Origin: Lingula anatina
Taxonomy: Eukaryota; Animalia; Brachiopoda
Direction of reading: 5' to 3'
NCBI GenBank assembly: GCA_051362555.1
Contig: CM120641.1
Coordinates: 9,982,001 to 10,046,000 of the forward strand
DNA length: 64,000 nt
Shown here: piece by piece, positions 1-56,546 of the stretch
How the letters are laid out: every line of letters begins with the position of its first letter
How positions within the stretch are numbered: the first letter of the stretch is position 1
The notes under the pieces: model-generated
What the model saw: the letters and a program-made list of their open reading frames with translations, nothing else
The model's database searches: none
Told to the model about the DNA's origin: nothing
Position numbers and translations under genes: made by a program

Positions 1-199
1 TTGCCAATCCCACTCGCTCTATATATGTAATAAACCCTCATATCTGTAAGTCGTGCCAATATATCCGCTTGAGAACATCCCATTTTCTTCATTTATATAT
101 AAACCTGCATATTAAATTGGTTTAATATATACGTGCTCAAAATCGTTGACATCGACAAATTGCACGCCTCCGGCCAACCATAAAGCAACTCAAAGACGC

Positions 200-1792
200 G
201 TACGTTCTTATCAGCTCTTTCGGATTGATGAGTTTTATGACTGCTCACCATAACGATTGTACAAGGTAAGAAGACAAACTAGTTATTCGAGTTGGACAAG
301 GTCATTCTTTCAATGTGTTCAGCTCTCGGTTGTAGAGGTAAGAATACCTATGCCAGGAGGTGGTCTCATTAATGTTCCTGTGTAATGACCGGGTAGGATG
401 GGGAAACCTATAAATACGTCACGACCATTGTTTGTTTGAAGCCCAAAACGTGAAAGTGTCGTAGTCATGTGGTATTACAAGGTTTGAGATGAACGCGTTT
501 TCCCCTTCAGCAAGGTAAGGTGTGTAGGTATTTTCTACAAAACGATTTACGTTTTGGGGTGTTCTCTTGTATAAATTCTTAACTTTTATCCATTTGAAAA
601 TACAAGTTATTTACTACACAAAGAATAAAAAGCACCGCTGCTGCTCATTGCGTTCCGTGGAGACACAAACCGTGTGAATTACCGCAGCGACTGATGCATA
701 TTCGCTTTCCCAAATATCCCAGAATTTGAACAGACTATTCCATTAGTACCCCCAGGTCCCGTTTAGTAGGTTGCACACTGCACTCTGTCGATATAAAAAG
801 CTTCTGTTTCCATTCCCATAAGGCATTCCATACATATGATTAATGCGATTAAGGTACAGCCAGCAATTTACAAATGGCGAGGTATAACGATTTTCTACAT
901 TTTGGGTCGAAGCGAGGATGGGGCAGATGTTCCCGTTGCAAATTATCTGTACATGTTAAGGGCGAGTAGATTTTGTCGACACTCTTTTTACCGAGAGTGT
1001 TATTGATCGTTGTTGTGAATGTAATTCATGGACGAGACCCATGTTAAAATGATCAGATGACGTATGGTTAAGCCCAAGCAGATGCCCCCTTGACAGAGTA
1101 TTATCTTGCACAGCTGCTAACCCGAGATAAATGCTTCCCTACAAATGGCGGCTTTATTGTTCATTAGTGTCCAGTCGGCGTAATTTATTCTATCTAATAA
1201 CGTATGTAAATGCGGGTTACCGAATTTGGCATAATGCATTCACACAAATGACACTTCTGGATTTTGTAATCAGATATTACGTGGAGACGTGGTTTGAAAG
1301 AAAGGGAAGACGCTTTGGTCTGTTGAAGATGGGTCGGGATGAAACGGTAGCCTAATCGACGAAGCATATCCAGACACTGAGATATTGCGTTTGTGGTTTA
1401 ATCAAAAGATTTCTTTCTACATGTCAACTACTCTTTATCGCTTTATCTTTTCAGGTTTTGGAACGCGGTGCGGTCGCAGCCCCTACCGATTCCTCAAGCG
1501 ACACACTAGGACGACAGCGTCTTTCTTCGTGTTAGTGTTGCTTCACAAGGCACAGCAGTGGCTTATTGAGAGAGAAAGAAGCAAGGAATCCATGTTAAGC
1601 ACAACTTATATACGTGTGGCTACCCATCTTTGTATGGAGTACCCTTATCATTCTTCGTCCACCATAATTTGCATGTCAAACTGCTGACGTGTGTCAGAAC
1701 TGTGTGTGTGGAGCGCAAACGTGGCGGTGAATGTAATATGTACATAGTATGTGGGACGAGTTGAATGGTTAGGTATATATGCATGTGCTGTG

Positions 1793-1827
<35 letters not shown>

Positions 1828-1850
1828 AGGGAGAGAGAGAGGGGTGCACG

Positions 1851-1884
<34 letters not shown>

Positions 1885-4671
1885 GACGCAATGGATAGAA
1901 TTTATGTTTATGAAATTTGGGTAGATTGAGTGTCGTTTCTTTATTATTCGCAAGTTGCCAGTTACAAATGTATGTAGTACGACAAATAGTTTAAGTAGTT
2001 AGTACGGTAGACCATTAACAATGTCGCATTATTTGGCACCTTCGGTTTTTTTCTCACAGTGGAGATGAGGTACAAACGCGCGATTGATGCAGAAACGACG
2101 TTTGTATAAAGCGTCCGTTACGTTTATATATTTCAACAAACAAACTAGCTCTTTCAAGAGAAGACACGATAAGAGAAGCCATTTGACAAATTAGCTGCTG
2201 CCACGGCAACTCTCAGCTCTTCAGGTCTGTAGTAGTAGGCTTGTGGTATGACAAGATCACTTCAATAACGCTCCCGGTTCCCTGACTGAAACCCATCAAG
2301 TGAAGAGGAGTCATGCCAAGTTAACGTCTTTATGTGATTGTTTCCAGTGATATGAAATGACGTGACATCTCTTTTTCTCTTGTCACTAATGAGATGTTGA
2401 TGGAACATTTTTTTTCAGACAGAAGTGAGGACCGGTGGTGAAGAGGCTGGACTGCGGGGTCATTACCTAGACGCTTCCGGCGCATTTCCCCTTTGTCAAG
2501 ATGACAAGTTATAATTATTTGTCATGCTCATGTCGTCTTTATTTTTTTCTGATCTTTAGATTTCATAATATGAAGTGCAGGTCGCGTGTTAAGGACGTCG
2601 GGGGGGGGGGGGGGTAATTTATTCAACATTCAACATTGAAGATTGGTTTGCTACAGGTTGGTTTGCAGTCATTGGGTCTATTCGATGTTATTTTTTCTTA
2701 CTTTGAGAACGTGATGACATGGCGTCGACCACCGCAAAATTTGATTTTTTTATGAGGACGAGGCAACGAAGGGTGTTGTGGAATAATATTAAGTTTCAAG
2801 GTGCAAAAATCTGTCACTCTTATATAGGTTGCCACCTTTTTGATGTTGGACTTCATTACTAATCGTGTTTTGGTTTTTAACAATCACGTTCGTTTGAAAG
2901 ACAGTGCAATTGACAAAACGGTTTTGTAGTATATACAAATATGACTGGCCCTCAAGTATGATGAAGCAAAAACTTTTGGTCACTATTTGTTTGGAGGGGA
3001 GAACAACATTAAATTTCAACCCCGCACCAACAGTCTCGCTGTTTGTTTTTTGCTGTCTTCACGCGCGGTGCCTCTCGTCTCCAAGCAGTGTAAGGACCCA
3101 GTATACAGGGCGGCGTGTTTCTCGCCCGGCCTTGAGTCGTGTGCTTGGCACTATGTCAGTTAACTGACAGTTTAGATACCATCCGACTGCCTAACGAGCC
3201 GAGAAGAACATTCAATCAACCTTGCTCGGCAGTCACTGTCATAAGCGAGGCTTTCAAACATTGCATATATATCTTCTGAGTCACCGGCAAAAGTGTAGTT
3301 TGGCGGGAGAGTGGGGTGGTTCTGTATTATTAACTACTGGCTTGTTGGTAGCTGAAATGAGCAGTGATGCGTATGACATTGTCCTGTATATCTTGTTCTC
3401 TCTGTAGAAAGTGGGTGCACAGTGAATTTGTTGATTGATCATTGGGTCTTGATTTGGAAATGGACGAAAATGAACGTGAAATATCTTGGAAGCAATTGGC
3501 CAGTAATCTTTGTTGAGATTGGATGTTTTGTCCTAGCTTGTCCATTTGGAGGGACCGCGTCTGCACTGCCTTTGGATGGACTCCAATCATGTCACGTTTC
3601 AAGAAACTGATGGACCCTTAAGACTGTCCCTAACGGTAAGAAAAGCCTCCCCTTGCGACTTTGGGGCCTTTAATTTTTCTTCCATTCATCTATAAGTTTC
3701 AGACAGATTCTCAATAAGTTTACAGGGTAGCCCGTCCACAAGGACTTCAAAACCAACACATATCTTGATGAAGGCAAATGAATCACTTCCCTAGGAGAAC
3801 ATTAACAGCGGCAAAAATGGCCATAGATGATGGATCACTAAAGCTCGGAAAATGGCGTCCCAAGTGACCCTTTTTTTTCAACATTTTCCGTTGTGGCAGC
3901 TTTTGGTGAAATTGCCCCTTTTGTAAGGGAATAGCTGTGAAATATACTGGTGTTTTGGAAAGTGTTTTGCTAGTAGCTGGGTGGTAGTATGTGTGCGTGG
4001 GAGGGAGGGTCGGAAATGGTCATCATTGTCATTGCTATGCATGTGAATGCAGCAAGTCGTATTTTACTATCTTTATACATTTATCAGCAAAATGCATTAA
4101 GTGACGATAACAGAAAAAAAAACTGTCGTCGCTCAAATGTTTTGGTGCACGAATTTTGTTTTTCATTACGGTTAAGTGCTTTTCAGAAGAGACAACGGTT
4201 GCATATCAATCGCGTTCGACAATATAGTTAATGATATTTGAAAGTCATTACAAAAGAAAATAAAGCTGGCGTCGTGTATCAGTAATGACTATTGTTTGTG
4301 GATGGGAAAACACATTATGTGATAGAAAAAGAAAACTGTACCCTTCTTTACTAAATACCATTTGTTACATGATAAACCTATCTGTTGACTTGCCAGTAAC
4401 AAGATATTCACGCAGGTCCTAATTTATGCAATCATGTTATCGGCGCTGCGTTGATAAAACAAATTGGTAACACGTTTAATGGCGCGTGGAAAATGAGTCG
4501 AAGCGATTGGTGTGGAGATTGTCAATGTTTGCGTGTGTTAGATGCAAAGTATTGGTAAATGTGAAAGTGTTCCAGTAATGATTTGCATAATAAGTGGCAT
4601 CCATTGCGCCTGCCTTGCTCTGCACGCACGCGGCTCCATGTGAACGTTACGTCATGTCATAGTGTTAGAGA
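200..4671 (+). ncRNA. putative structured non-coding primary/host transcript region upstream of mir-184
   Basis: No credible ORF. Visibly richer in GC and CpG than the rest of the window, with many local stems whose G-U pairs favour the + strand, the same strand as mir-184. Transcript boundaries cannot be determined. Confidence 0.45.
1795..1883. repeat. compound (TG)n/(AG)n microsatellite
   Basis: Direct reading. Confidence 0.95.
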
Positions 4672-4755
4672 GTTGCCACGTTTCCTTATCACTTCTTCTC
4701 GCCCGGTCTGTACTTGAGGAACTGGACGGAGAACTGATAAGGGCTTGTGGCTAAC
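4672..4755 (+). ncRNA. mir-184: microRNA mir-184 precursor hairpin (mature 3p arm 4723-4744, star arm from 4684)
   Basis: 4723-4744 reads TGGACGGAGAACTGATAAGGGC, the conserved mature miR-184. The 5' arm CCTTATCACTTCTTCTCGCCCGGT pairs with it, and the basal stem is GCCACG/TGTGGC. There is UGU at the loop start and a CNNC motif (CGTC, 4761) ~17 nt after the 3' end. Confidence 0.97.
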
Positions 4756-5368
4756 AAATACGTCGTGCACTATGCGTAAGTTGGTTTCATGAAACAAAAT
4801 TTATATTACTATTTCTACCCGCGCGAGTAACGATTCAAGAACAAGAGCTGTGTTGCGAAAATTAATAAGTATTTTATTGAAGATGACACAAATTGCAGCA
4901 TAAGAAATTTGTGATGTGGGTTTCAGAAAACCAAACGTCGAAAAGGTTATAATGGCAAAAGTGAAATGATAAATGTTTTACAATAATTTTCATTGACAAT
5001 TTTAACCATTGGAAATCAAAACAAGAAGATACATCTTCATAAATACTACGATGTGATCACGTTTTGTGGTGGTTGTTTGGACCAAAACGTCCTCCAGACA
5101 AATATTTGCAATGAATGGTTTTATTTGTAATATCCTGCATTGTTGAATCGAGCGGATGTTACCTGATTAACAGCCATGTCTAAAATACGCTCGAGTTTGC
5201 GATCAATTTAGTCTCTAAAACAATATGGGTTGAATATTGGTAAATTTTTTTACTTATTAAATAACAAGAAAACCCACTTCCAACAAACATTTGCATACTT
5301 CATAACATCGCCAAAGCGCCGGGTTAGTGTGGCCATATTTTTACATGGTTTATGACATTAAAAAAGTA

Positions 5369-5954
5369 TTAAAGCCCCAGAATTTTGACATTTTATTCAT
5401 ATATTTTTAAAGTCTAGAACTGCAGACAGAAGTACAATTGCAGTTGTAGTTATTTGTTGGCATATTTTTCATTTCAAAACTATAGTCTTCAAATTGTTGA
5501 AGATAAAATTTTTCACTGACGCGCAAGCGAGCTTATTTGTAAAATATGTAAATGCATCTCCACCGTCTAATAGAAGATGCAATTAGTAAGAAATATATCA
5601 AGTTTTCAAGTGTTATAGTTTACAAGCATCGAGCGATATTGCACAAGAAGAAAACATTTTACTGGAAGTAACTTATTTCATTTTTATTCTTACTTTTTCA
5701 GATTGACTGTTTTGTGATTGGAATTTCTATGAAATTTTGGCTGTCACATGAGACAGCTTATTTTAAAATTTTTACTTGATAACCGCAAATTTTGTGTTGG
5801 AGCCCTACTTTTTCATTTGTCGCAACAACGGTCATTTCTGTTGTGGCCAGTGAGCTGCCCAAGCCCCATTTTCTAGTTTAACCAATGGTTCAATGAATTT
5901 TGTAAAAATTTGAATTTGAAACAAAACTATAAATCTCGATGTATCGGGCTTCAT
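5369..5954. mobile_element. possible decayed TTAA-type (Kolobok-like) non-autonomous element
   Basis: TTAAAGCCC at 5369 and its imperfect reverse complement GGGCTTCA near 5946-5953; no other support. Confidence 0.25.
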
Positions 5955-6560
5955 GTCAATAAAAAATAGACATTTTTTAATAATTGTCAACAGTTGTTCA
6001 TGCTGTATATGCTAGTTAGGCCTACTTAATTAAAATCACGTGTAAAAATGTAATATATTTTGCAATATATTTCAAGAAATAAGAAAATAAATAATGTATA
6101 TATATAAAATCAAAAATAATATAATAAGACAGTAAAAAGAAAAGAAAAAAAGAATAGAATAAATTATAGACTATAAAAGTCTCGTAAGCTTTGAATCTCA
6201 CGTTAGCAACCGTTACTTTTATCGGAACGAATAAATAAATAGATATAAAAATTAGAGATTAAGTTATATGTAATTTGGATTCACAAACGAGGAGAGGTGA
6301 CAAAGATTTACAATGTTATTTTAAATGAGTAAATTGACAGGCCCTTGAATAATAAAACAATGTTAAGTTGAACTTAAGAGGTTCGAAATCGACTAGAAAA
6401 ATTAGTCTCATTGTTTACCGAGGCAATTTTTATGACTGGAATAACCCTTTTTTTAATCTAGGTTTGCCGTTTTATTTTGAACACAGAGCAAAGCTTAGAT
6501 ATAGAAATTCTTGCTTCGTCTGTGCCTCTTGCGGTAGTAATACTTTCACCCCCCCCCCCC

Positions 6561-6609
<49 letters not shown>

Positions 6610-7197
6610 AAACTTATTTGTATACTTTCATCGTTGATTGGCAGCCCTTTGTTTCTTTCGCAGTGATATCTTGGATGTCATAATGACGCCGCGGAAACAG
6701 CAATTTATTAATCAAAATTATTCTTGATCGGCAAGTGTCTGGATTTCAATCTTCTCAAAGTGTAAATTATTACCTGTAAATTAGTAGGTTAATGATGGAA
6801 TGTTCTAGCATGACAGAAAATGCGCAAACAAATATCCATACACCTCTTCAACTGGCAGCGTGTGTATTTTGCAAATGGCAAATCCAATCTTTCTTAACTT
6901 AAAGCATGCTAGACCGTTAAAAAAGCATGCTCGCTTTCAAGTAGTTGCACATCAAATGCATTTTTACACTCTCCTTTTCTGTGTAGTGCATACATAAAGA
7001 CGAAAAACGAAAACGGGTCAAAAGTCCACAAGAAAATAATGTCAAACTAGAGCTTGAAATAGTAGAGCTTTATTTCAGTGGGACTTCGTTCCTTTCACGG
7101 CTTTTTGTGACTAGACGTGTCAACTTGCTTTTAATGATGCTCATAGACGCGCGAAACTAGGTTAAAATAAAATGCAGAATACTCGCTATGCTCAAGT

Positions 7198-7228
<31 letters not shown>

Positions 7229-9335
7229 CATGGCCGGATCAAGTCGTTAATTTGCCTGTGTCACTGCATTGGTGCACGTTGTCTTTACGTTCTCAATTAT
7301 TCCAACAGTAAGTGGTCTCATGACTCTTGGGATTCTAAAATTTGGATTTGTTTCCTTGCTCAAGATTTCTCTTCAATCAATATTCTAAATGAAATTACCC
7401 CTATAATGAGCAATATATGAATCAGTTTGTAAAATAGACGCAGTTACAAGCGTAAAATGCCCTTGTTTAAAACGATCTATATGTTGTATGTACCTCATCC
7501 TTTTTTTCCCATTTACGCCCTTTCGCAACTTTCACAACTTCAGGGTATGGTTTAAGTCAATCGAGTATCCTTTACCTTTATGGGAGACTAAGCGTGAACG
7601 CATATTTCTAAGTTTTTACAATTAAAATAATTTAGATGTTTTTTAACGTGGCATGTTAAGGTATGTAGTCAACGTAACGCTAACCAGGTCAAAACTCACT
7701 TAATTAAATAAATCGCCGACTTCCCGAATCGAATATGGAGAAAAATGACAATACCAAAGGCAATTTTTTAATTTGGTTTCGTGCCTGATCAAAAGTGCTT
7801 TAGCTTATTAAGCAAATTTCCGAAAAACCATAAACTGCTAAATGCCAGTAATCAATTTGACCAATGATGGAACTTTGGAAAGCGGACGATACCCAACGCC
7901 CTCATAAATTATTTTACTTCAAATCGTGGCATTTATTTAGATGGGGCCCTTGTAATAATACGTCGCAACGTAATGCATCCGTAGTTATGCCAGATCCAAG
8001 AAAAATAACCGCTTTTCAGACAGAAACAAAAGAAAAATAGTCGTTGTTAGCAGTGAAAATGCAGTTTTATATACTTCATCAAACGTGTTTCTGTAACCCT
8101 TACTCAACCGAGACAAATGAGAAGGCAACCAGACTGAGTTTGCAAATAACAAAACCCCGATTGTGTGTAGTGCCAAGCACAACTTGCCACCGCCTGAACT
8201 GAATTCATTTCTTATAAAATATTGCAGGCGAATATTATAATGCTCTGATTTTGGAAAGTTAGATACTTGCCATCTTGCACACGTTCAAATAAAATGAAAA
8301 ATATTAAAAAAAGAACAAAGTGGTTTTTGAAGGTAGTATTAGTACTGGTTAGCAAGAAAGCACTCTAAACTGGTTCTGAACATTATTGATTGAAATTCAG
8401 TGTTCCTACAAATTAAGCCGAAAGAAAGTTACATGTACCGGGAAATTGGTCTTCATTACATTTTAAAATCTCGAATGATAATTTATAACACTTGATAATC
8501 TACTCCGTTCATTCTTCATATAACGCACTCAAATCACGTGTTCAAAGAAGTAGATTTACCAAGCAAAAATTTGAACAAATTATCTTCGGCTGGCTACTAT
8601 CAAAAACATTCTCAAAGACAAATATCACCTTTTGACAACAATTAAATGACAATTCACCAATAACTATACAATAATGACGACAAGCTGGAGCTTACTTCGT
8701 GATTGATGAAATCCTTACCATTTAACAACACCTACAAACTTTTATTCTTTTCCGGAAACTTTATTCAAAATGTATCATCGCATAAAATTAACCAGGTGGG
8801 CTTTCAGCAAACTTTGTGTAACAATATAAATAAACTCCCTCATTTCAATGTTACAATATGCAACAAAATACGGAAACCCACAAAGATTTGGCATGACAAT
8901 TATGTATTTAAACCGTCTTCTCATAAGTAGTATTTACAAATGGTACTGATCAAATCCACATTTAATGATTATTACAACTAGCAAAAGAAGTAAGACTAAG
9001 GCATTGGCATAACCTACCAAAGTAACTACTTCATTTTAAATGAAGTGTTCCATCGTATCATTTAACGGTTCCTTTCTTGGAATTATCCTTAATTTTGGTT
9101 ATTATTCAAACATTCGTGCAGTCATGTCTTTCTTATAAAACACTAATTTTTCCAAATCAATTCTCATTGTTTCTCAAGTATGCTTCACCACATTTTAACA
9201 TTCTTTAATTTCCTTGACATGATATTGCCAAATTTCACAAAACATACACGTTTCCAGATATGCACTTAATAGAACAGCTTTCTACGAAACCATGGTTTCA
9301 GCCACTCTAGTCCGATCCAAACCAAGGAGTAGCAG

Positions 9336-12300
9336 CTACTTCTTCTTGCCAGTAAGTCCAGCTCCGGCGTTGAATTTGAAGTGAATGATGTCCCCATCTA
9401 GCACAACGTAATCTCGGCCCTTCTGGAGGTACTTTCCTGCAGCCTGAAAATACACTTGTTTTTACGATTTCTTCATATGAAAAAAAAAAAAAAAAAAAAA
9501 AAAAAATCAGGCGGAAAATGATGCATTTTGATAACTTCCTAATCCACAAAACAGGTTGCTTAAAAATTAGACAGGCAGTACAGCAAAAGAGAAAAATGAT
9601 AAAGTTCTCGTTGTGTGAGTTTTTTAAAATGTTTATTTTTTTATTGTTATCATTATTAATTTATTTACTTTTTTCATCTTTTCTTTTGCATCTCCTTTGT
9701 GAATTGATTCAGATAGCCTACCCATGAGAAAATTTAAATCGTAACAGCTTTAGCCCTTTAAGTCACTATAATACAGTGACAAGAAAAGCCAAGCTAATAT
9801 CTCTGGTCTAGACAGAAACCCGTCCTAATTCTATTAATTTCCTATTTCAAATTATTTCTAGCTTTATTGTTGTAATGAAGCAGGGGCCTGTAACATGCCT
9901 TGCTGTATTTTTGAAAAAGACATAAAATGTGCCAATAATGCCAATAAATTGCCAATAGACAATTTTTTTCCAATTTTTCATTTCCTTAACCCAATTACTT
10001 ACATTAAATAGTGTATCCAGACATTTTTTCTGTACACTAAATCCACTTCATCAGTACACTTTAAACCTTTTAATATCCTTTGTTTGACAAATATTTCACA
10101 ATAATTTTTGTTGTCAATAATGAAAAAAGGGTTATATTATATTCCTCTCCTTAATACATGAATAATATGGTAAAATTGTCTAATAATTTCCTTTGCTGTA
10201 TGTTCAAAGCACTATTTTTTACTTTTTTTGATAAATAGCATGCCATTTGTAGCTTGACAAGCAATTTGCAGTGGAGCAGTTAGTAAATGTGTTTGGTCTT
10301 GTAATACTTTCTCCTTTCAAACTATTTAGCCTCAGCACAATAGTTTTCAATTTTTAAAGAAATTTTTTTTTTTTTGAAACAACTGCAAAATATACAATAC
10401 TTCACTCATTATTTGGGTAGATACAGTAAACATGTTTATTGGATGAAAGGAAATTATCTCACAACTGAAACCTCCAAAGCATCCATTCACATAAAAACTT
10501 AATTTTGATATTTATTTAATCATGCCATGCCTTCAGAGAAATATATGCATCCACAATTAGAAAATTCCACTTAAAGAGTTCAGAGGAGGCCAAATTTCAA
10601 AGAATTTTCTTTCCTGTTTTTATTTTTTGCCAAACCATGTCCTGACTACATGAGATTTTCCTTTGAGGTTGGCCCGTTTTAGAAGATGAGGTGTCAAGCA
10701 GGCACACCTGCTGTCGGAGTTACGTGATGTGACACCACTCGTTCATGCCAGGAAAAACAAACGACAGACATTGTGCCTTCCTTACTGTGCAAATTAAACA
10801 ATTTCACATACATTGTAAAGCTAGCAAAAATGTTGAATTTTCAATTTAGTTACTCAAGGTGAAATACACCAGAACTTCAGTTACAGAAATGTATTATTTT
10901 TTTCTTTGATTATTCATCTAAAAACTGAAATAATTCATTATACTGTAACTAACAGAATAAATAGCAACAGACAGAACAAGACTAAAAGTACGGGGATATT
11001 TTGGGAACCTTTTGACATTAATCAAGTAACTTATTGTAACAGTATCACATAATTAAGCACACTAAACCTCAAATTCAAGTACCTCATCAGAGATAAATCC
11101 ATCAGCATATTTAGTGAATCTCATACAAGTATATCATTACTGTTAAAATACATGAAGTTAACTTATCAAGAATATATAACAAGGATGTCCCTAAATAGTA
11201 AAAGAATAGTGCCCTGGCACGCAGCTTATTTTATATCTTGGGTTTACCCTTTCTTCAAGTCTGTGTTAAACAATATGCAATGTATTTCGTAAAATCATCA
11301 ACTAGATTCAGAGCAAGCTGAACCCTACCTTGACTGCATTTTCACTGCCCAATTCCTTGAAATCATCAAATTTCATCACCTCAGCCATGATGAAGCCTTT
11401 TTCAAAGTCAGTGTGAATTTTTCCAGCCGCCTGAGGTGCCTTGGTGCCTTTCTGAAAGCATGAAAATTTCTTAAGATAAGTTTGTGTATTTAATACATCA
11501 TCTCATCACAAATGGAATTTTCGAATATCAATTCATCAATTCAGCATTCTTGACATTTCAGTAACCAGTGATTTCATGTCAATCAAATTGGGAATACACA
11601 ATAAACATTAAAAATTTTTAAGTAATAAGGATGTTAAAATTTAAATAATAATAATAATAATAAAGGTAAAATCAAACAATCATCAAAAAGAGTAACATTT
11701 TTACACAACTAATTCAACAAAAACAGTTTTAAATGAAAAAAAAAAAATTTGCATTACATAATGTGTGCATGCGTGTGTGTGTGTGTGTGTGAGCACACCT
11801 GCGTACACGTCTGCATTAAAAATTTTGCTAGAAAATGAGCTGAGGACTTTACTCAGTCTTCAACTTTTAGAGCTTATAATATTATTTTAATTTTTTTCCA
11901 TTTTATTTTCACACTAAATACAAAAAGAAAATTAAAATAAGAAAAAACATGCCACTGGAATTTCCCAGCAGTTGGAACTGTGCATGTCCAGTAATCATTA
12001 ACTTTAGATTTTTGAAGTGTTAGACAAATATCTGTCACCACAAGACAAGTGTTAACTATGCTATTGCATGCAAGGACCATAAAACTTCTCTTCATATTGA
12101 CAGTGCCTGAAACGCATCTCTTACATAAATTTTAAGTTTTTATTACATGGTGTTTATCACTATTATATAATAACTTGCATGTAACTGACTAAATCTGTGC
12201 ATTAATATTTGTCGTAAATCTGTGCATTAATTATGTTCGTATCCCTCGTTGATAAATGTAGTTTTCACCAAATGGTACCAATGCCCTTGCAAGAGAATTC

Positions 12301-42930: not shown

Positions 42931-45320
42931 ATGCAAGACGAAGAAAACTCCTTTGAGTTGCGCACGTATGAACGCATTTCCGAGTATGTGCCAGTTGGTA
43001 AGTCAATTTTCCTAAAACTTTAAAACTTTTCTGTTTGTGTTCCGTCAAAGGGACCGCCTTCCACGTTGTCAACGTTAGTGGGGTAATATAATGCAAACCC
43101 AAATATATATAACCAATGTTTAGTTCCTTGAATAACCCATTCAATCTATTTATTTTTTTTATTTGTTCATTTATCTATGAATCTAATGTAAAAATCATTG
43201 TATCAAAAATTTCTGCTGTTATCGATCGTATAGAAATCTCAAGATGACAATTTAAATGTTTCAGAGGATACTGTAATTCAGAGGAACTTTGAGGAAGATT
43301 GGAAGAACAGCTGTCAAATATACGATGCTTTGAGAAAAGACTCGAAACTATGCGATGCAGTACTCGTTGTTGATCAGCGAGAATTCCCAGTCCACAGAGT
43401 CATCATGGCTGCCTGCAGTCCATATTTCAAAAGATTATTCACTAACCAAATGAACCCATCTTTTGATGGTGATTTTCCGATAGAATACCACATCTGTGAC
43501 AAAATAAGTGCTGGAGTTATGGAAATTATCATCAATAATGCCTACAACAGGAAGATTGATATTAACCCTGAAAATATTGAGTTATTACTATCAGTTGCCG
43601 ACCAGTTCCACATATTTGGTTTATTAAAAGCATGTGTCAATTATTTGGAAGAAAATTTGTCCGTGGAAAATTGCATTGGAATATGGATGCTAGCAAAACA
43701 CCATAACTGCCCCAACCTAGAAAGCACAGTCTTTCGATTTTTGTTAAGACATTTTACACCCGTGTCATTCTATAGCCAAGAATTCGTCCAGTGTTCCGTA
43801 GATGATTTGGTTGGTTTACTAAGTGCCGAGAACTTAAATGTGGCAAATGAAGAAATTGCGTTTGAGGCTGTCATCCGCTGGATTTCACAAGATCCAATTA
43901 ATCGCAGAAAGTCCCTCCCCGTTCTGCTCCCAAATATCCGTCTTGGATTGCTCAGCAGTGACTTTTTCTGTACACAAGTCGTGAATGACGAGTACGTCAA
44001 AGCAGAGCCCCAGTGTGCCGCAATTTTAAATGAAGCACAAAAACTCATCGATGCACTGGACAGTGAGAAATATTCTGATGTAGATTTTACCCACCCCCTC
44101 ACCTGCCCACGAGTCCCAGTTGACGTGTTGTTTGCTATCGGAGGGTGGAACACAAACAGCCCTACAAATCTGATTGAGACCTACGACACACGAGCAGATC
44201 GGTGGATCGAAGTCCTAGCACAGAGCCAAGGTCTTGGTACGTAGTTGGTATACCTAACAGTGAGAGCATTCCTGAGTAAGTCGGTTAGTACTAATCAATA
44301 ACATCATAATCCACAGGTCCCTACACATAATTAATTTTCTCTTTTCGTTTGTCATTTAACTATTTAATTCATCTATTAAGGTCCGACAGCCTATCACGGC
44401 TGTGTAACTTTGGGAGGAAAAATCTTCATCATCGGCGGATTTGATGGAGTCGAATATTACAGTCAGGTGCGGTATTACGACCCAGCAAACAAAAAGTGGT
44501 CAAAGGCCGCTCCTATGCACCACAAAAGGTAGATTGCTATTTATTTTAGATGTGTAGTAAGAAAAACTACGATATTTTCACAATTACGTTTTTATTCCAA
44601 CAGGAAACCAGTCATTTGCTTATCAAAGTGTATACGTAATCATTTGACCAAGTGACGTTATCTGTCGGATGACGTGCAAATATTTTAGTGTGACCCCAAT
44701 GTTTTAGATCGTCTTGGTAATAATGATAAAAGACTAAATTTTACTCATTAACGTAAAAATTACCTTTCAACTTGACCCTATGTTTTTCTTTACGTGGACC
44801 TCTAAGAATCAATTGACCTATTTTAATCCCCTTAAATTCGTACAAGCGATAACTCTTTTTAAGAACACGTAGGACCTACGATGAATAACTTAACAAAGGA
44901 GTTTTTTATTTAATCACAAAAAGAGTAAATTTTCTGTATGAAATCTTCATCATTTTGATTTTAATTTTATACTTTTAAATTCAAGTATATGAAGAACGTA
45001 TGCAATTTTAATTTATAATCATTTTAATTGATTCTCATGTCTTATTCTAATATTCTAATGATGTAAGACTGCAATCTTCAGGTTGCAATTTAAAATTTTT
45101 ATATAAACCAATTATTATTATTATTATAAGGTGCTATGTCAATGTTACTATCCACGATGACAAAATCTACGCCATGGGAGGCTACAACGGGGACACACGT
45201 CTAAGTAGTGCCGAAAGATACACCCCCAGTACAAATCAGTGGACACCAATAGCGCACATGCACACCGCCAGAAGTGACGCAGGCGCTTGTGCATCAAAAG
45301 GTAAAAAAAAAATAAAATAA

Positions 45321-45354
<34 letters not shown>

Positions 45355-46418
45355 CAGCAATTTTTTTAATTAAGAGTCTGTGACAAAATTAATTGCCAAT
45401 TATATTTAGAAAACAAATGTGACATCTGATGTTTTAAACTAGTTTTAAGCCATTTTCTTGTTGAAAATGATACAGTTTAGATATACTAAGCATTTTGTCA
45501 CAAGGATCATTACAACGTGATATACGCAAGGAGCCTCCATATTTTACAGATTTTGTCTTCTGCATCGGTGGTTTTAATGGCTTACACTGCTTGGACACAG
45601 GGGAGTATTATGATCCCCAAACTGAACAGTGGACCTACATAGCATTCATGTCATGCCCCAGAAGTGGAGTTGGTATGTACATGTATGCTGTATCTCTAAA
45701 TATTTATGACTGACGCCTAACACTGGGTGCTGTTAAGAAAAAATGTGTATCAATGGAATCATCTGCAAAACTGGTGCCGAAAATTGATTCTTACCTTTGA
45801 CAAGCGTTTCTAGTAGTTTAATTTTTTTATTTGAATTAAGCTTTACGTATTGCATTAAAGGAATTGATACATTTTTCTTAATTTAATAAGTTTAAAAGTA
45901 AGTTCATTTATTTAATTTTCCATAGGAATTATTATGTATCACGACTACATCTATGCTGTTGGTGGGTTCAATGGCTTGCAGCGACTTAGCACCGTGGAAA
46001 AATACGATCATATCAGAAACACATGGAAACCTGTTCCTGATTTACATGTCCAGAGAAGTAACTTCGCCATAGAGGTACGTTACCGTCAATCAGCTGCTTT
46101 GGTTATAATTTAGTGCCAATTATATTTACCAACTTCCCTGTTTGCTGTGATGGTTATAACATTTTAAATCTGCTATTGAAACCTGGCGTTTTTTAAAATT
46201 TGAGTGTTTTGTTTGTTGACTTTACTCAAATTATAAGTTTTATTTGAAACTAATATCACAAGATTGTTTCCTTGTAAATCAGGTTATAGACGACATGATT
46301 TACGTAATCGGCGGTTATAACGGAGGAGCAACAATAAAGAAGGTTGAGTGTTATGATGACAATTCTGAAGAATGGTACGTCTATAGCAAACGGTTTAATT
46401 GATATATATATATATTTC

Positions 46419-46486
<68 letters not shown>

Positions 46487-46804
46487 GAAATCTGTAAAAA
46501 AAAAAATTAGTTTTTAATCTTTAATCTCGTTTTATTTGTTAAAAAATACCGATTTCGCTAATAAGTTACCAGCTTCAAACACGGTTTACAAATGATCTTA
46601 AAAAAAAAGCGCCATATTGTTTCCCTTTCTTTTTGTATCTTATTTTCATCATCCTTATTGTAATATTAATGAGGCCAGTGACAGTTTTCGTATTATTGCA
46701 GGTACGAAGCTTATGACATGAAATACAACCGGAGCGCGCTCAGTGCGACCGTGGTGCAAGACTTGCCAAATATCAAGGATTATATCGTCAAAAGGAACAA
46801 TTAG
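42931..46804 (+). CDS. KLHL10: Kelch-like protein 10-like (BTB-BACK-Kelch, Cullin-3 adaptor), paralog A
   Basis: Exons 42931-42997, 43265-44236 (LCDAVLVVDQREFPVHRVIMAACSPYF; LFAIGGW..TNLIETYDTRADRW), 44381-44528 (AYHG..IIGGFDGVEYY), 45131-45300 (RCYVNV..IYAMGGYNG), 45550-45672, 45926-46074 (RSNFAIE), 46283-46374, 46702-46804 (RSALSA..LPNIKDY). The motifs are typical of KLHL10; strict orthology needs a tree. Confidence 0.88.
46400..46482. repeat. (TA)n microsatellite
   Basis: Direct reading. Confidence 0.95.
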
Positions 46805-47419
46805 ACCTAAACTTTCCTTGAAATAAATCAGGTTTTATATTAAAAATGATGTTTGACATTAAGTTTATGCAATAAATATCTAGCTAGACATTAACTAAGT
46901 GGATTTCTTTTTTATGTATCTTATATGCATTAATGATATCCCTTTGATTTTGAGTTGAAATCACATATCTTCCTGCGTTTTGAACTTTGTTTCCTGTCAA
47001 TCAATTGGCCAATATTGTTAATTTGTTTTAGAGCCTATTTTACATACAAAGCTGTATGTTATATATAGCATTAATAGCAATTTAACCCTGTCCCCTATTT
47101 CACCCATATGTGACAATTATAAATAGAATAACAATGACAAAATAAGTCGGTTTTGACATGATTCGTTTCCCTAGTGATTAAAACCCTAAAAACAAAATTG
47201 AAAACATGCACGCGTTTAACGTCATTATGAAGGTAAATCAATGGAAACTTTTGGCACTGACTACATGAAACATGTTTCTGCAGGCATTCGTCTTTTGTTC
47301 CCTTGTATGGATTGATGAGGACGAGGCTCCTCAACCCCCCCCCCCCCCACTTTAAATCCGCGTAAGATCATTTAAATAAAAAATTTGTCTGTCAGTGTGT
47401 GATTCAAATATACAACAAA

Positions 47420-47486
47420 GATGACGTCGTGTTGCTGTCATGTACTTCAGTACTGTGACGTCAAATTTGATACACTATGACGTCAC
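47420..47486. promoter_or_regulatory. cluster of CRE (TGACGTCA) elements upstream of KLHL10-like B
   Basis: Perfect palindromic TGACGTCA at 47456-47463 and 47478-47485 and TGACGTCG at 47422-47429, ~110-170 bp upstream of the ATG. Confidence 0.6.
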
Positions 47487-47592
47487 CTCTGCTCCGTGGA
47501 AACTAACTATCAAGGCTATTTCGTATAAAAAATGTTTCGTTAAAAAAAAGAAAATTGAAATTTGCCTGGCATAATTTACGGTTTACTGAGGC

Positions 47593-50500
47593 ATGGGCGA
47601 AGATGACCATTTTGAACACCGCACCTATGCAAAATTATCTGAAAGTAGACCGGTTGGTAAGTAAAAGCATGGTGAATCAGTTTTCGTGTTACGCGATACA
47701 AATTTTAATACGTTTTCGTTGAGAGTTTAAAGATAATCTTATGTATAGTTTTCTATGCTCTCTTTACTAATGATAAAATAGAGGCATGTAATTTCAAGAT
47801 GTTTAATGACAGAAAGGATAAGTTTGTATATATTACCCTGCATCATACATGAATTTCGAAAATTTCTACTAACTAACTAACTAATACGGCAATGCTTGGG
47901 TCTTAGGTGATATTTGGATCCAGCGTAATTATGCAGGCGACTGGAGCAATAGTTGCAAAATATATAACGAACTGAGAAAACATTCAAAATTATGTGACGC
48001 AATACTCATTGTGGATAAAAGAGAATTTCCAGTCCATCGGGTCATCATGGCTGCTTGCAGTACATATTTCAAAGCTTTGTTTACCAATCAGCTGAGTCCA
48101 TATTTCAATAGCTCTGCTCAGATTGAGTATCACATAATCGAAGGAATAGAGCCGGATATCATGGAAATCATCATTAATTATGCCTACACTGAAGAAGCTG
48201 AAATTACCCCTGAAAACATTGAATTATTACTGCCAGTTGCCGACCAGTTCCATGTATTTGGTCTACTTCGTTTATGCGTCAACTTTTTGAGACAAAACTT
48301 ATCAGTTGAGAATTGCATTGGTATTTGGATGCTAGCCAAACATCATTTCTGTACCAGTCTCGAACGCGCAGCATGTCGATTTCTGTTGAAGCATTTCACG
48401 GAGGTGGCCACTTACAGCCAAGAATTTGTTCAACTGTCCGTAGAGGAAGTACTCAGTGTACTCTGCTCAGAGCATCTTAATGCGACAAACGAAGAAACTA
48501 CATTTGAGGCTGCTATCCGTTGGATTTCACACAACCCGGAAAGTCGCAAAAGGCACATACTTGACCTGCTTCGATGTGTCCGACTCGGATGGCTAAATTT
48601 CGAATATTTTGACACCCAAATAAAGGAAAATGAATTCGTCAAAGCAGAACCCAAATGTGCTCCTCTTTTGGCCGAAGCGCAAAAACTACTGGAGACTCTT
48701 GATATTGGGATGTATAGTAACGCCGACTTTACCCACCCCCTCACACGCCCCCGCATCCCAGTGGACGTATTGTTTGTTATCGGAGGATGGACCGAAGGGA
48801 ATGCTTCCAGATTCATCGAAACTTACGACGCAAAAGCTGATCGCTGGATCCCATTATCCACTACATATGAAGACAAAGGTAAACTTGAAAACGCGTGAAT
48901 ACACATCCATTCATGTTTATAAATCGGTACATGAAGCATAGTAAAGAAAAACTTGTAGCTGGTGAGATATAGTAGCGTTGAAATTTGAAGAAATCCTCGG
49001 GTTTATTTTTTATTTTTACTTTTTTGTGTCAGTTGCGACAGCCTATCACGGTTGCGTATCACTGAGAGGTCAAATTTACGTCATTGGAGGATTTGATGGA
49101 GTTGAACATTACAATCAAGTGAGAAGTTTTGATCCAGCACGAAAGAAATGGTCCGTTATAGCTCCTATGCACCATAAAAGGTAATCTACTCCATACACCA
49201 GGCTACAGATACGATATGATAAATATGATAAGAAAGTGCATTACGTTTAAACTAACATCACTCTAGTTGTATTGGCATAGATGGCGATTGGCGTAGATCT
49301 TTAAAAAATTAAAATACATGTAGGCTTTTGGTCGCGTGTTGAATAACTGCCTTTTATGTCTATTTTATCTAGATGCTATGTCAACGTTACTGTGCATAAT
49401 GACAAAATTTATGCCATGGGAGGCTATAATGGGCATGCTCGCCTACCAAGTGCCGAAAGATATAACCCCGACACTAACCAGTGGAGCCAGATTGCGGCAA
49501 TGCATAATGCAAGAAGTGACGCAGCCGCCTGTGCGTTAAGAGGTAAAGTTTATCTTGCATTTCTTATCTCCGTCTTTCTCTCTCGCCTGGTACGCTTGAA
49601 CATAAGAATCTTTCAAGAATAAAGATAGAAAGAGACTCTATAATGTCTAAACACAAGCAATCTAACTACATACTATGCAATAAGACCCACCATTACTTTT
49701 GACGTATTTGTTTCAGAGACTAATTTCCTCCTGAGATTGTATTCGTAAAATAGAATTGTGATTTCCCCCTACAGAACAATTTTGTTCACCATGTAGCTCA
49801 GAATGATGAATTCGCCAATACGACTGTGGATCGATCAATCACCTAGGGGATTCTTTCTAAATTGCAATCAACGAAAGCAGCTTAGATGTCTGTCACGCCT
49901 ACTGAAACTGCTAGGGGGTAATTAACTATCGTTTAGCAGCTTCAGTAGGTGTGTCAGACATCTTAGCCGGTTAAGCTGAAAGCAATTTAGCGAGAAACCC
50001 CTCGGAGATAGGTCGATCCTGTTAGATCGATCTAGGTATGGGAACTCAACCCGGTCTTACTTCTTCTTCAACGGTTAGGATTTATCTGACTTTATTTACA
50101 TTCCAGACTTTGTGTACTGTATTGGCGGCTTCAATGGCTATGATTGCCTGGACACTGGCGAGTATTACAACCCTCAAACTGACCAATGGACATATATAGC
50201 GCCAATGTCAAGTCCAAGAAGTGGCGTTGGTAAGCGGTTGTCTTACACCCCATTTCCATAGATTAGATCGACCTACTTTAGATCGACCTAACTCCCTGGG
50301 GGTTCACGCTAAATAGCTGTCAGCCGGGCGGACACGAAAGTTAATTACCCTCTTACAGTTTGTAGTAGGCGGGACGGACATTTAAGTCGGATTATCTGAA
50401 AGTAATCTAGTGAGACTCCCCGCGGGGATAGATCGATCTAAAATCTATGGGAATAGAGCCTAATTAAATGTTTGAGCTGTTTGCATGTTACTGGATGGGT

Positions 50501-51634
50501 CAATTGTCAAACTCTTCATTTGAATTAATTCAAGCATTCAATTTCTATACCACATAATATGTTTATGTATATTTCTGTTATTATTCTAAAATGTCAAAAA
50601 GGAAATGTGCTTAGGATTAAACTTAATTCAAAATGTATTTTGTAACTATTAAAGATTGAATCAGTTAATTTACTATTGTGAATTACATTTATCGGATATG
50701 ATATTTATATACTCTTGAATATTTTTTCGATCTACACATTCGAATATTCTCAGGGGTTGTCATGTATCACGGCTACATCTATGCAGTTGGCGGGTACAAT
50801 GGCACACAGCGATTGAACACCGTGGAAAAATACGACCAAGTCCGAAATATATGGAAACCTGTCCCCGAACTTCATAGCCAGAGAAGCAACTTTGCCATCG
50901 AGGTGGAGTATAACAGCCAAAACAACTTCTTTTTAGTATTTTCGTTAACAAGAGAGTTGTTGCATCTCATCCGGTGGTCAAACTCTTTTTAACATCCTTC
51001 TCTTAAATGGTTACAACTGTTTAAACTTACAATAAGAAATCTCACTCTATACTTTGTTGTGTAATCAACGCCAACAGTAGATTTTTCCATTTCTTTTTTT
51101 AGCTATATTAAGCTAAAACTGTTAAACACATAACATAGCCACGGTGTTATCAGTCTTTTTCACGATATTTTATTTCTATATAGAATTCCCACTTTAATGT
51201 ATTTATCTTACCAAATTTGACTGTAATCAGCTTAATGATCTTCAACTATAGGTCACAGACGACAAGATTTTCGTCATTGGGGGTTTTAATGGCGTTACAA
51301 CAATCAAGGATGTAGAATGTTTCGATGGAAAGAGGGAAGAATGGTAAGATTTTCTTATGAAACTGCTTGGAAATAACAGAACACATTTGTTTTTTTTTCA
51401 CGAAGACCCGATCGGCTTTCCGTGCACGTTGAATTATTCTTAATTTCCATGTAACATAACATTTACAAACAATTTGGAACTTTGTCTCATGATGATTGAT
51501 GTCTCATGATATCTGTCTAATTTTGTTTTAGGTACGATGTTTGCGACATGAACCTCAACCGAAGTGCGCTTGGCGCGGCCGTGGTTAAAGACTTGCCGAA
51601 CGTCAAGGATTACATTATAAAAAGAACAAAATAA
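47593..51634 (+). CDS. KLHL10: Kelch-like protein 10-like (BTB-BACK-Kelch), paralog B
   Basis: Exons 47593-47656, 47907-48878, 49033-49180, 49373-49542, 50107-50229, 50754-50902, 51252-51343, 51532-51634 (TAA). Same intron positions and phases as paralog A, and the frame is open throughout. Confidence 0.88.
49828..50052. mobile_element. fold-back MITE (TAGATCGATCTA family), copy 2, almost fully palindromic
   Basis: GGATCGATCAATC..AGATGTCTGTCACGCCTACTGAAACTGCTA mirrors TAGCAGCTTCAGTAGGTGTGTCAGACATCT..GATAGGTCGATCC; homologous to copy 1. Confidence 0.8.
50246..50460. mobile_element. fold-back MITE (TAGATCGATCTA family), copy 3
   Basis: The interior is the reverse complement of copy 1 (e.g. 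CTCCCTGGGGGTTCACGCTAAAT vs ATTTAGCGTGAACCCCCAGGGAG); ends TTCCATAGATT / AATCTATGGGAA. Confidence 0.85.
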
Positions 51635-54304: not shown

Positions 54305-56491
54305 CTATACTGCAACAACATCATTCTCATCATCAATTCCATTTCCATTCACTAGCAATGAACCATCACTGGGAGGGGAACCCATGTCATCTAAATCAGG
54401 GACCAGACTTTCAATGTTCTTCTTCTTAGAAAGATCATTCAATCCTGAAAAATAAAAAATTAAAAAAATTAAAAAATATGGCTCAATAATTACAAATCAA
54501 AAACCAGACTTTCAGTGTTTTTTAAAAGAAAGGTCATTTAATCCTGGAAAATCAAAAACAAATCTGGCACAATAGTTATGAACCTTAACAATAGTTATTG
54601 CACATTTAGCAAAAAGTTACAATGGTTAAATAAAATCAGCTTTAAAAAATCATCCACATTTTTTTGGCAGCACATAAAATTTTCACCTTTTCCAAGACCT
54701 GTCCCCTGACCTCCAAGTGGAGCCAGTTTGCCCTTTCTTAATGGAGGCAAACCATTCTCATTGGACAGAGCAGGGCCATTCAGGGGAGGAATATCAGACT
54801 CTTTCCTGGGACTCTTCTTCTCCCCAAACTTGCTCCCAACTGGGACCTCTGCCTCACCCAGGTCCCCAGGAGTCTCGTCTTTATTGGTGGTGTTGATCTC
54901 CTCTGCTGGCCTTGGTGACTTTTTCTTCTTGCTTTGGTCTTGTTTGTCTTCCACACCCAAAGCTGGCAAAAAAAATGGTTTGCAAGAGTTAAGTAGAGTG
55001 TCCAGGTCTAAAATCTAATTATGGTCTTTAGTTTCTCTCGAAGCAATAAGCACTTGTAAAATGGGTGTGGTAAATAGTAATACAACAAAAGCTCCTCCAA
55101 TCTTTCTCAATCAATCAATTACAAAACCAACTGTATATTTTTGATACATATCTTTTTACATATATAAAATTTACATCGCCACCAAAATTACAACATCCTC
55201 AAACTTGACTTACCATCTTCAGGTATGTCGACTGCAAGTTTGGCACCCTTGCTGAGCCTATCACAGAGCATGCCGATGTGTTTCCTCAGTTTGCTGGTGT
55301 CCCTGGGCATAGTGAGGGGGGACGGGTTCACTGTCTGGTCCTTGGCATTCTTAGCCAGGCAGGTTCTTAGCAGGTGGGTTATTGCTGCATCTACACACTC
55401 CTCCCAGCCCTGGTACAGAAAATAATGCATAGATGAAATAATTACAAATCTAACATATACTGGTTGCAAAACAGTTCTCCTTTCAAACAGTATATTCAGT
55501 TACATTTATTCAAAATTCAAATCTCTCACTTATTATATTGAGCATATATTTTTCCCCTATATTTATTGATGTATCGCTTCAGTTGCTACATATTATCCTA
55601 CTTTTGTACAATTATATAGCTTGCTTGACAAAATTTCTGTGCTCTTTTTCAATGTATTATCTGCAAAACTAATTTGGGAAATGTAACTGATCAATTTTGC
55701 TTGGTTTCAGTGAGCACCAATGATGTGATCTAAATTTCCAATTGACCAAGGCAAACATTCCAAAAATCCTCCAATGATAATGTTCCACCATTCTACATCA
55801 GAATTATTATTATTCAAAATAAACAGAAAACGGTGACATGGCCAGTTATCTAAAATCTTGCTTTTTTAATCCTCCCACATGCAGATCTGTCTAATTCTAT
55901 TCTTCATATACATTACTCACCAGCTCCCCACTGTCCTCCACCTGGGGTGATATACTGGTCTCCAGCACTCTGAATTCCTTGTCCGTCATGTTCCCCATCA
56001 GACGGATCAGCAGATTGAGCAGACGTGTGGCACTGCTCAGGTGACTGGCTACTTTGGCTAACAGATGCTTGTTTTCCTCCACTGCCTCCCCTAATGCTAA
56101 GATCTAGAATATATATAAGACATGTCACAGAGAATGTTATGGAAACATCATGTGTGGTGTAGTTTGCATCATAACTGTCAATAAGGCTTTAGCGTGATTC
56201 TATTGTAAATTTAACTACTTGGTGGCAATTCTAGCAAAAAAAAAAAAAGACTTCTCTCAAAGTCCAAATGACCATATGTCATAGAAGATCAAACAGCTGC
56301 TGTATTGTAACAATCCCAAGGGTGGGTTACCTGTCTATATGTGCCATCCAACAGAGTGTCTAAGTTAGCAAGAGGGGATGGTGTCTTGTCCTTAAACTTG
56401 GTCAGAAGGCGTCTCTGAATTGCTCGAAACTGTGCTGCTCTCTGTCCCAATACTTCTTTCATTTGGAGATCTTTTAACCTTACCTGGAGTG

Positions 56492-56546
<55 letters not shown>

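What the first reader, a model, noticed from the sequence alone, without database searches (positions are those of the whole stretch)
1642..1661. Near-perfect miR-184 target site 3 kb upstream of mir-184 on the same strand (self-targeting/decay trigger, or relic paralog)
Seen: CCCTTATCATTCTTCGTCCA versus the exact miR-184 complement CCCTTATCAGTTCTCCGTCCA. miRNA nt 1-11 pair (one G-U at nt 7), nt 12 is bulged, and nt 13-21 pair. Such a match so close to the gene is unlikely by chance. Established: extensive 3' pairing with a central bulge marks target-directed miRNA degradation triggers (Cyrano/miR-7, Nrep/miR-29b), and C. elegans let-7 binds its own primary transcript. Inference A: the host RNA is bound, sliced or acts as a decay trigger, forming an autoregulatory loop. 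The site can also pair with GTGGCGGTGAATG (1721-1733), so access may be structure-gated. Inference B: it is the star arm of a decayed mir-184 duplicate, since AACTG..GACG..AGAACTG..TGTGG at 1679-1711 resembles a broken 3p arm.
Basis: partly seen in the sequence, partly recalled or inferred. Interest (0 to 1): 0.8.

Follow-up and report, generated by a model that had tools for sequence, protein, structure and literature searches.

The report
Brachiopod miR-184 self-targeting site
In a lamp shell (Lingula), a 20-base stretch 3 kb upstream of the microRNA gene mir-184 pairs almost perfectly with miR-184; it is likely the leftover arm of a dead gene copy and may have been kept as a site through which the microRNA would cut its own host RNA, though a functionless relic is nearly as likely.

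Summary
Window 1642-1661 (+) pairs with nt 1-11 (G7:U) and 13-21 of miR-184 from the hairpin at 4672-4754, at -31.4 kcal/mol. None of 150 shuffled microRNAs reach this, and chance is about 7e-6 per 10 kb. The window is Lingula. Stranded polyA reads show + strand RNA on both sides of the site and into the hairpin, but none covers the site. The site pairs better than all 67 real mir-184 star arms, and likeness to the hairpin stops at the microRNA's ends. Two weak remnants of a mature arm lie downstream (p about 0.005-0.05, post hoc). Best reading (0.42): the star arm of a dead duplicate, kept as a binding or slicing site in the host RNA. A neutral relic is close behind (0.38). It fails the loop criterion of decay (TDMD) triggers, because nt 9-11 pair. 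No such site occurs in 95 mir-184 loci of other animals; no lingulid relative could be tested. The structure gating is unsupported (z -0.32).

The parts
1642..1661 (+). Near-perfect complement of miR-184 nt 1-21 (G7:U, C12 bulged, A opposite nt 1); predicted slicing position between 1651 and 1652
   Evidence: cut position inferred from the g10/g11 rule (established knowledge)
4672..4754 (+). mir-184 precursor hairpin; star arm from 4684, mature 3p arm 4723-4744
   Evidence: one read pair runs into its 5' arm
1679..1711 (+). Candidate remnant 1 of a mature arm; its AACTG lies 36 nt after the start of the CCTTATCA motif, as in the real hairpin
   Evidence: anchored p 0.01-0.05, not significant position-free
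1717..1736 (+).
   Evidence: 5 edits from hairpin 4720-4740, reached by 3 of 634 windows, but not significant against the full mature arm (87 of 634); real mir-184 hairpins with offset 63-91 in 7 of 83 contexts
841..4720 (+). Sparsely transcribed + strand domain, the likely pri-mir-184/host RNA; continuity across the site not shown
1434..1455 (+). Predicted 3' splice site (last intron base 1454) that would put the site in an exon; predicted donors at 266, 338, 515
   Evidence: crude scan with recalled donor frequencies; no spliced read seen

Best explanation
The 20 bases pair with miR-184 over 20 of its first 21 nucleotides and are likely the star arm of an old tandem mir-184 copy whose mature arm decayed, possibly kept because miR-184-Argonaute would bind, and is predicted to cut, the host RNA there and so damp its own production. 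Shown: the pairing, its rarity, + strand RNA on both sides, and better pairing than any sampled real star arm. Inferred: origin by duplication (about 0.7 on its own), that site and hairpin share one transcript, and that selection keeps the site. Predicted, untested: Argonaute binding and a cut between 1651 and 1652. A cut would uncap the hairpin-bearing 3' part, which would be lost or forced into processing; if the C12 bulge blocks cutting, the site would act as a high-affinity 3'-compensatory site.
For: (1) Not chance by position. (2) -31.4 kcal/mol against best -29.7 and median -22.9 for 67 real star arms in 24 sequence clusters; only 2 of 67 pair 20 of nt 1-21. (3) The site has C opposite G21, as only 4 of 66 star arms do, and lacks the GT/GA that follows the arm in 56 of 66; its 5' flank does not align to either hairpin flank. 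Likeness thus ends where the microRNA ends. (4) If either downstream remnant is real, the mature arm has diverged by 24-40%. At 20-30% simulated neutral change the site keeps -30 kcal/mol in only 97 and 23 of 3000 trials. (5) + strand RNA upstream (841-1200) and downstream (2200-4720). (6) Slicing-type layout: nt 9-11 Watson-Crick. miR-184 has the purine at 10 and A at 17 that speed slicing by human AGO2, and a weak pair at 7 can help (G:G tested, G:U not; PMC11100590 passages). HOXB8 is sliced despite a seed G:U (scanMiR preprint passages). (7) Tandem mir-184 copies exist: L117 holds two, 185 nt apart.
Against: No read covers the site: 0 of the 5 reads laid on 1-1785 from 4 runs. The gap from about 1200 to 2200 allows separate transcripts, and no spliced read supports the exon. 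The host RNA is rare in these polyA libraries. The site's two flaws sit where star arms have them: C12 is unpaired in 64 of 67 and G7:U occurs in 23 of 67; the L046 star arm has the same pairing pattern at -29.7. So a relic needs no selection to look like this. No comparable site in 95 mir-184 loci of other animals. The C12 bulge fails the scanMiR slicing rule (nt 2-15 paired), and single bulges are expected to disturb slicing (PMC8940178 passage). The site was noticed because it is well preserved, which weakens point 4; both remnants were scored after being seen. Slicer activity of the Lingula Argonaute was not tested.
Confidence: 0.42

Rival explanations
1. Neutral relic: the star arm of a dead tandem mir-184 copy, with no selected role. 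The copy had its own flanks and a well-paired star arm, and lost its mature arm by deletion or decay.
For: Both flaws of the site match star-arm habits; a real star arm with the same pattern exists (L046); the site is 3 edits from 2 and 4 edits from 20 of 67 star arms. AACTG sits at the same 36-nt offset as in the hairpin, and remnants score p 0.005-0.05. Tandem copies occur (L117). No conservation in distant animals; host RNA rare.
Against: The site pairs better than 67 of 67 star arms, while everything around it is near random (mature arm 8-9 edits of 22, reached by 87 of 634 background windows). Neutral change of that size rarely spares the site. A single deletion would have to start right at the arm's end and would leave no remnants.
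Confidence: 0.38
2. Decay trigger (TDMD): the host RNA uses the site to send miR-184-Argonaute to ZSWIM8-dependent destruction.
For: 9 contiguous 3' pairs from nt 13; 3' pairing energy -13.8 kcal/mol (ViennaRNA) lies within the -9.6 to -17.1 of validated triggers (another program; PMC10899785 section 11). That review notes that centrally paired targets sometimes induce TDMD and that ZSWIM8 is found throughout Bilateria.
Against: No 3-11 nt loop breaking nt 9-10; the seed match is only nt 2-6 plus A, with a wobble at 7; the host RNA is rare; a trigger co-transcribed with its own microRNA would be a futile cycle (inference).
Confidence: 0.08
3. Chance match, unrelated to mir-184 by descent or function.
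For: About 0.5 such matches are expected per 400 Mb genome, and the scan reads some 250,000 windows. Exact or one-off 19-mers of the site turn up in 9 of 117 metagenome loci with unrelated flanks.
Against: 6.8e-6 per 10 kb next to the gene; 0 of 95 other mir-184 loci, 278 kb in all, have a site at -26 or better; weak remnants point to duplication.
Confidence: 0.08
4. Mature arm of an inverted mir-184 copy, or an antisense microRNA with a changed seed on the - strand.
For: The site is 2 edits from the reverse complement of the mature arm against 5 from the window's own star arm; a 9-mer at 1717-1725 matches the reverse complement of the hairpin's 5' flank.
Against: No hairpin on the - strand; no Rfam match on either strand at E up to 10; the 9-mer is not significant (15-19% of windows); reads point to + strand RNA.
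Confidence: 0.02

Closest known systems
C. elegans let-7 / pri-let-7 autoregulatory site (Zisoulis 2012; seen only through PMC3771402 and PMC8077553 passages)
   Same: A microRNA with a binding site in what is likely its own primary transcript.
   Different: The let-7 site lies at the 3' end, is conserved and promotes processing. Here the site is 3 kb 5' of the hairpin, pairs almost end to end, is predicted to be negative, and conservation is unknown.
miR-196/HOXB8 and miR-671/CDR1as slicing sites (scanMiR preprint 10.1101/2021.06.16.448293 and PMC6223193, passages)
   Same: Near-full pairing through nt 9-11; HOXB8 also has a seed G:U.
   Different: Those targets are other genes' RNAs. Here the target would be the microRNA's own host, and C12 is bulged.
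Rtl1/Peg11 and its antisense microRNAs (PMC6223193 passage)
   Same: Complementarity that arises from the microRNA locus itself.
   Different: There the target is the opposite strand of the same bases. Here it is a separate, same-strand site, likely from a duplicate's star arm.
TDMD triggers Cyrano/miR-7 and Nrep/miR-29b (PMC10899785 section 11; PMC9880601 passage)
   Same: Long 3' pairing from nt 13 with energy in the trigger range.
   Different: No central loop, imperfect seed, low abundance.
Tandem mir-184 copies (locus L117)
   Same: A second star-like arm near the gene on the same strand.
   Different: In L117 both hairpins are intact and 185 nt apart; here only one arm is recognisable and it is 3 kb away.

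Membership tests
TDMD trigger | Seed pairing, typically an 8mer | tested here: inconclusive
   Perfect pairing at nt 2-6 plus A1, G:U at 7, pair at 8; no 6mer (2-7), 7mer or 8mer match at the site
TDMD trigger | At least 6 contiguous 3' pairs | tested here: met
   nt 13-21 paired; -13.8 kcal/mol (criterion)
TDMD trigger | 3-11 nt unpaired loop that breaks pairing at nt 9-10 | tested here: not met
   nt 9-11 Watson-Crick; only C12 bulged
TDMD trigger | ZSWIM8-dependent loss of the microRNA | not testable with these tools
   needs knockdown and small-RNA data
microRNA slicing target (HOXB8 type) | Watson-Crick pairing at nt 9-11 | tested here: met
microRNA slicing target (HOXB8 type) | Unbroken pairing over nt 2-15 (scanMiR rule) | tested here: not met
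   C12 bulged; works like such a site, not filed as one
microRNA slicing target (HOXB8 type) | Slicing-competent Argonaute | not tested
   no Lingula Argonaute sequence was fetched; PMC11114477 passages report a miRNA-class AGO in every lophotrochozoan phylum
microRNA slicing target (HOXB8 type) | 5'-phosphate fragment starting opposite nt 10 | not testable with these tools
   no degradome data; no read pile-up listed, depth too low
pri-microRNA autoregulatory site (let-7 type) | Site in the same primary transcript as the hairpin | tested here: inconclusive
   + strand reads on both sides, none over the site, no joints
pri-microRNA autoregulatory site (let-7 type) | Site conserved in relatives | tested here: inconclusive
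   absent in 95 loci of other animals, 17 with at least 3.1 kb upstream; none shares flanks with the window, so no close relative was sampled
functional mir-184 gene (Rfam RF00657) | Hairpin with an intact mature arm | tested here: not met
   no Rfam match near 1642 at E up to 10; mature arm at best 8 edits of 22; fold z -0.32
decayed mir-184 duplicate | Star-like arm | tested here: met
   3-5 edits from 56 of 67 real star arms
decayed mir-184 duplicate | Remnant of the mature arm at a hairpin distance | tested here: inconclusive
   two candidates at offsets 39 and 79, p 0.005-0.05 post hoc, not significant in other tests
decayed mir-184 duplicate | Flanks like the hairpin's lower stem | tested here: not met
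   5' flank aligns over 4 bases only; GT/GA after the arm missing

The most novel reading that the evidence does not exclude
A dead microRNA gene copy recycled as a regulator of its living twin: the star arm of a lost mir-184 duplicate was kept and sharpened into a slicing site in the shared primary transcript, so that mature miR-184 cuts its own host RNA. This would be a negative feedback loop, and a general route by which tandem microRNA duplicates leave ready-made self-target sites.
Probability: 0.25. Interest if true: 0.75.

Novelty: new variant of a known kind. Interest (0 to 1): 0.45.

Why it matters
Slicing by animal microRNAs is rare (PMC6223193 passages). The one self-regulating case that the reviews seen here name, let-7, is positive and uses a 3' site. 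A near-perfect same-strand site in a microRNA's own host would be a negative loop with a precise, testable cut. It also suggests a simple source of such sites: every tandem duplicate carries a star arm that already complements the mature microRNA. That idea can be screened across animal genomes at once. If the site is a neutral relic, it is only a microRNA pseudogene in a brachiopod.

Tried and rejected
Own-genome search for other mir-184 copies: no genome is held. Run search for 100-1780: no RNA holder listed; nine raw-read runs of the same species label were offered, six of which were laid (X1, X2, X3, X4, X5, X7). Metagenome scan: 117 loci, 95 with the canonical mature arm; none shares sequence with window 1-12000 outside the hairpin and site, so conservation in lingulids is untested. 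Ten of 77 precursor contexts were dropped before the star-arm counts because fewer than 16 of 21 mature bases paired in the 94-nt fold; several of them are long-loop hairpins. Structure gating: the seed-pairing 8 nt are open with probability 0.42 or 0.004 depending on the folding window, fold z -0.32; rejected as evidence. Minus-strand microRNA: no hairpin. Coding role: no long frame over the site. A kelch protein search did not place the organism. Literature: no paper holds both 'Lingula' and 'mir-184'; searches listed nothing on a miR-184 self-site (listings and abstract starts only). Zisoulis 2012 and Becker 2019 are not held, so the effect of a bulge at nt 12 on slicing could not be read; no supplements were opened. 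PMC7564603 and PMC4238352 passages added nothing. Earlier-findings look-ups gave nothing on this site.

Full report
Setting. The window is animal DNA. An 82-residue exon at 57733-57978 (-) is 99% identical to a protein named PTHB1-like of Lingula anatina; the next relatives are 60-61%. So this is the brachiopod Lingula anatina or a very close relative. The only Rfam match at gathering score is mir-184 at 4672-4754 on +. Its mature arm, 4723-4744, is the canonical miR-184. No whole genome is held.

The observation. The 20 bases at 1642-1661 are as quoted. They pair with miR-184 nt 1-11 (G7:U) and 13-21, with C12 bulged and an A opposite nt 1, at -30.2 kcal/mol bare and -31.4 with flanks. The gene's own star arm gives -19.4 and the next best site in the 64 kb gives -23.2. 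None of 150 shuffled microRNAs reaches -28 in the first 8 kb. A match within two edits is expected at most 6.8e-6 times per 10 kb, but about 0.5 times in 400 Mb (assumed size). The match is real, and its nearness to the gene needs an explanation.

Is it transcribed? No RNA holder was listed; nine raw-read runs of the same species label were offered. On 1-1785, four runs gave 5 reads: two pairs in X1 at about 850-1180 and one read in X7 at about 180-330; X4 and X5 gave none. On 1890-6535, X1, X2 and X3 gave 17, 4 and 4 reads and X7 none. In X1-X3, 28 of 29 reads lie in pairs whose first mate is on -, which in most stranded libraries means + strand RNA. One such pair runs into the 5' arm of the + strand hairpin, which fits that convention. 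Some pairs may be copies of one molecule. Coverage spans 2200-3750 and 4525-4720; nothing but part of one partly fitting read lies 3' of the hairpin. So there is rare + strand RNA on both sides of the site, but no read covers it, no joint is listed, and about 1200-2200 is empty. A crude scan predicts donors at 266, 338 and 515 and an acceptor at 1454, with no strong donor until 3636, which would make the site exonic (unconfirmed).

Where does it come from? A metagenome scan gave 117 loci, 95 with the canonical mature arm. With the window's own there were 77 distinct precursor contexts, 67 of which fold as ordinary hairpins; they fall into 24 clusters. The site looks like a star arm. It is 3-5 edits from 56 of the 67. 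C12 is unpaired in 64 of 67 real hairpins and G7:U occurs in 23. One real star arm, in L046, has the same pairing pattern. Tandem copies occur: L117 holds two, 185 nt apart. Downstream lie two candidate remnants of a mature arm. It is not significant position-free, but anchored it is reached by 15 of 1551 windows and 40 of 1000 shuffles, and with a profile of the 3' half by 53 of 2123 and 48 of 1000. It is 5 edits from hairpin 4720-4740 (3 of 634 windows) but 8 from the full mature arm (87 of 634). Its offset of 79 is matched by real long-loop mir-184 hairpins (7 of 83 contexts at 63-91). Both scores were chosen after the pattern was seen, and two candidates show how easily this TG-rich stretch gives one. 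I put origin by duplication at about 0.7.

Is it kept by selection? For: it pairs better than all 67 living star arms (best -29.7, median -22.9), and only 2 of 67 pair 20 of nt 1-21. It has C opposite G21, as 4 of 66 star arms do, and lacks the GT/GA that follows the arm in 56 of 66. Its 5' flank matches neither hairpin flank. Likeness thus covers exactly the bases that pair with the mature microRNA. If a remnant is real, the mature arm has changed by 24-40%; in simulation the site keeps -30 kcal/mol in 97, 23 and 4 of 3000 trials at 20, 30 and 36% change. Against: the site was picked for being well preserved; an old paralog with its own flanks could have lost its mature arm in one deletion; and none of 95 loci from other animals (278 kb; 17 with at least 3.1 kb upstream, many of them near-copies) has a site at -26 or better. 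None of those loci shares flanks with the window, so no close relative was tested. The site is not a pan-bilaterian feature at this distance; whether it is conserved in lingulids is open.

How it would work. The layout is that of a slicing target, not a decay trigger. Validated triggers have a 3-11 nt loop that breaks nt 9-10 and mostly an 8mer seed (PMC10899785, section 11 read whole plus passages). Here nt 9-11 pair and the seed has a wobble, although the 3' pairing (-13.8 kcal/mol) is in the trigger range. For slicing by human AGO2, a purine at 10 and A or U at 17 are favourable, and miR-184 has both; its G7 is unfavourable, but a weakened pair at 7 sped slicing for one of two guides tested (G:G, not G:U; PMC11100590 passages). 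HOXB8 is sliced despite a seed G:U (scanMiR preprint passages). The C12 bulge is the weak point: it fails the scanMiR rule, and single bulges are expected to disturb slicing (PMC8940178 passages). The paper most likely to settle this was not held. The predicted cut is between 1651 and 1652. It would part the capped 5' end from the hairpin-bearing 3' part and lower the supply of precursor or of spliced host RNA: a negative loop. It needs miR-184-Argonaute in the nucleus or an exported host RNA; neither is shown. Gating by structure is unsupported.

Comparison with what is known. let-7 binds a conserved site at the 3' end of its primary transcript and promotes processing (PMC3771402 and PMC8077553 passages; the original was not held). 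miR-196/HOXB8 and the antiPeg11 microRNAs slice near-perfect targets, and this is uncommon in animals (PMC6223193 passages). The Lingula site works like a cross of the two but passes the membership test of neither, nor that of TDMD triggers. Searches listed no report of it (open-access library only; listings).

Verdict. Observation confirmed. Selected self-site, likely from a dead duplicate's star arm, 0.42; neutral relic 0.38; decay trigger 0.08; chance 0.08; antisense microRNA 0.02. These odds are my judgement. A new variant of a known kind if functional; interest 0.45. One alignment of lingulid genomes would decide most of it.

Noticed in passing
L013, L032, L062, L071, L086, L087, L111 (around the mature arm): mir-184 hairpins with unusually long, structured loops: star-to-mature offset 63-91 nt against 36-48 in 70 of 83 contexts.
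   Followed up: partly
L117, whole locus (751 nt): Two intact mir-184 hairpins in tandem, 185 nt apart, with different star arms and flanks.
   Followed up: partly
window 9340-9440 (-): Last coding exon of a YchF/OLA1-type GTPase (Pfam YchF-GTPase_C, E 1.8e-6), convergent with the mir-184 unit. The name OLA1 is recalled.
   Followed up: partly
window 43234-51000 (+): Two tandem BTB-BACK-kelch genes like KLHL10, each with a first coding exon of about 1 kb.
   Followed up: partly
window 54600-58050 (-): Exons of PTHB1/BBS9, used to place the organism.
   Followed up: yes
window 1-4700: G+C is mostly 40-46% (36-39% in three 500-nt bins) with positive GC skew, against about 33% elsewhere; the step falls near the hairpin, and P1 reads stop there.
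   Followed up: partly
window 792-801 (+): TATA-like motif about 50 nt before the first X1 reads; a possible start of the host RNA, on two read pairs only.
   Followed up: no
window 3732-3738 (+): A 7mer-A1 seed match to miR-184 between the site and the hairpin, the only one on + in the window.
   Followed up: no
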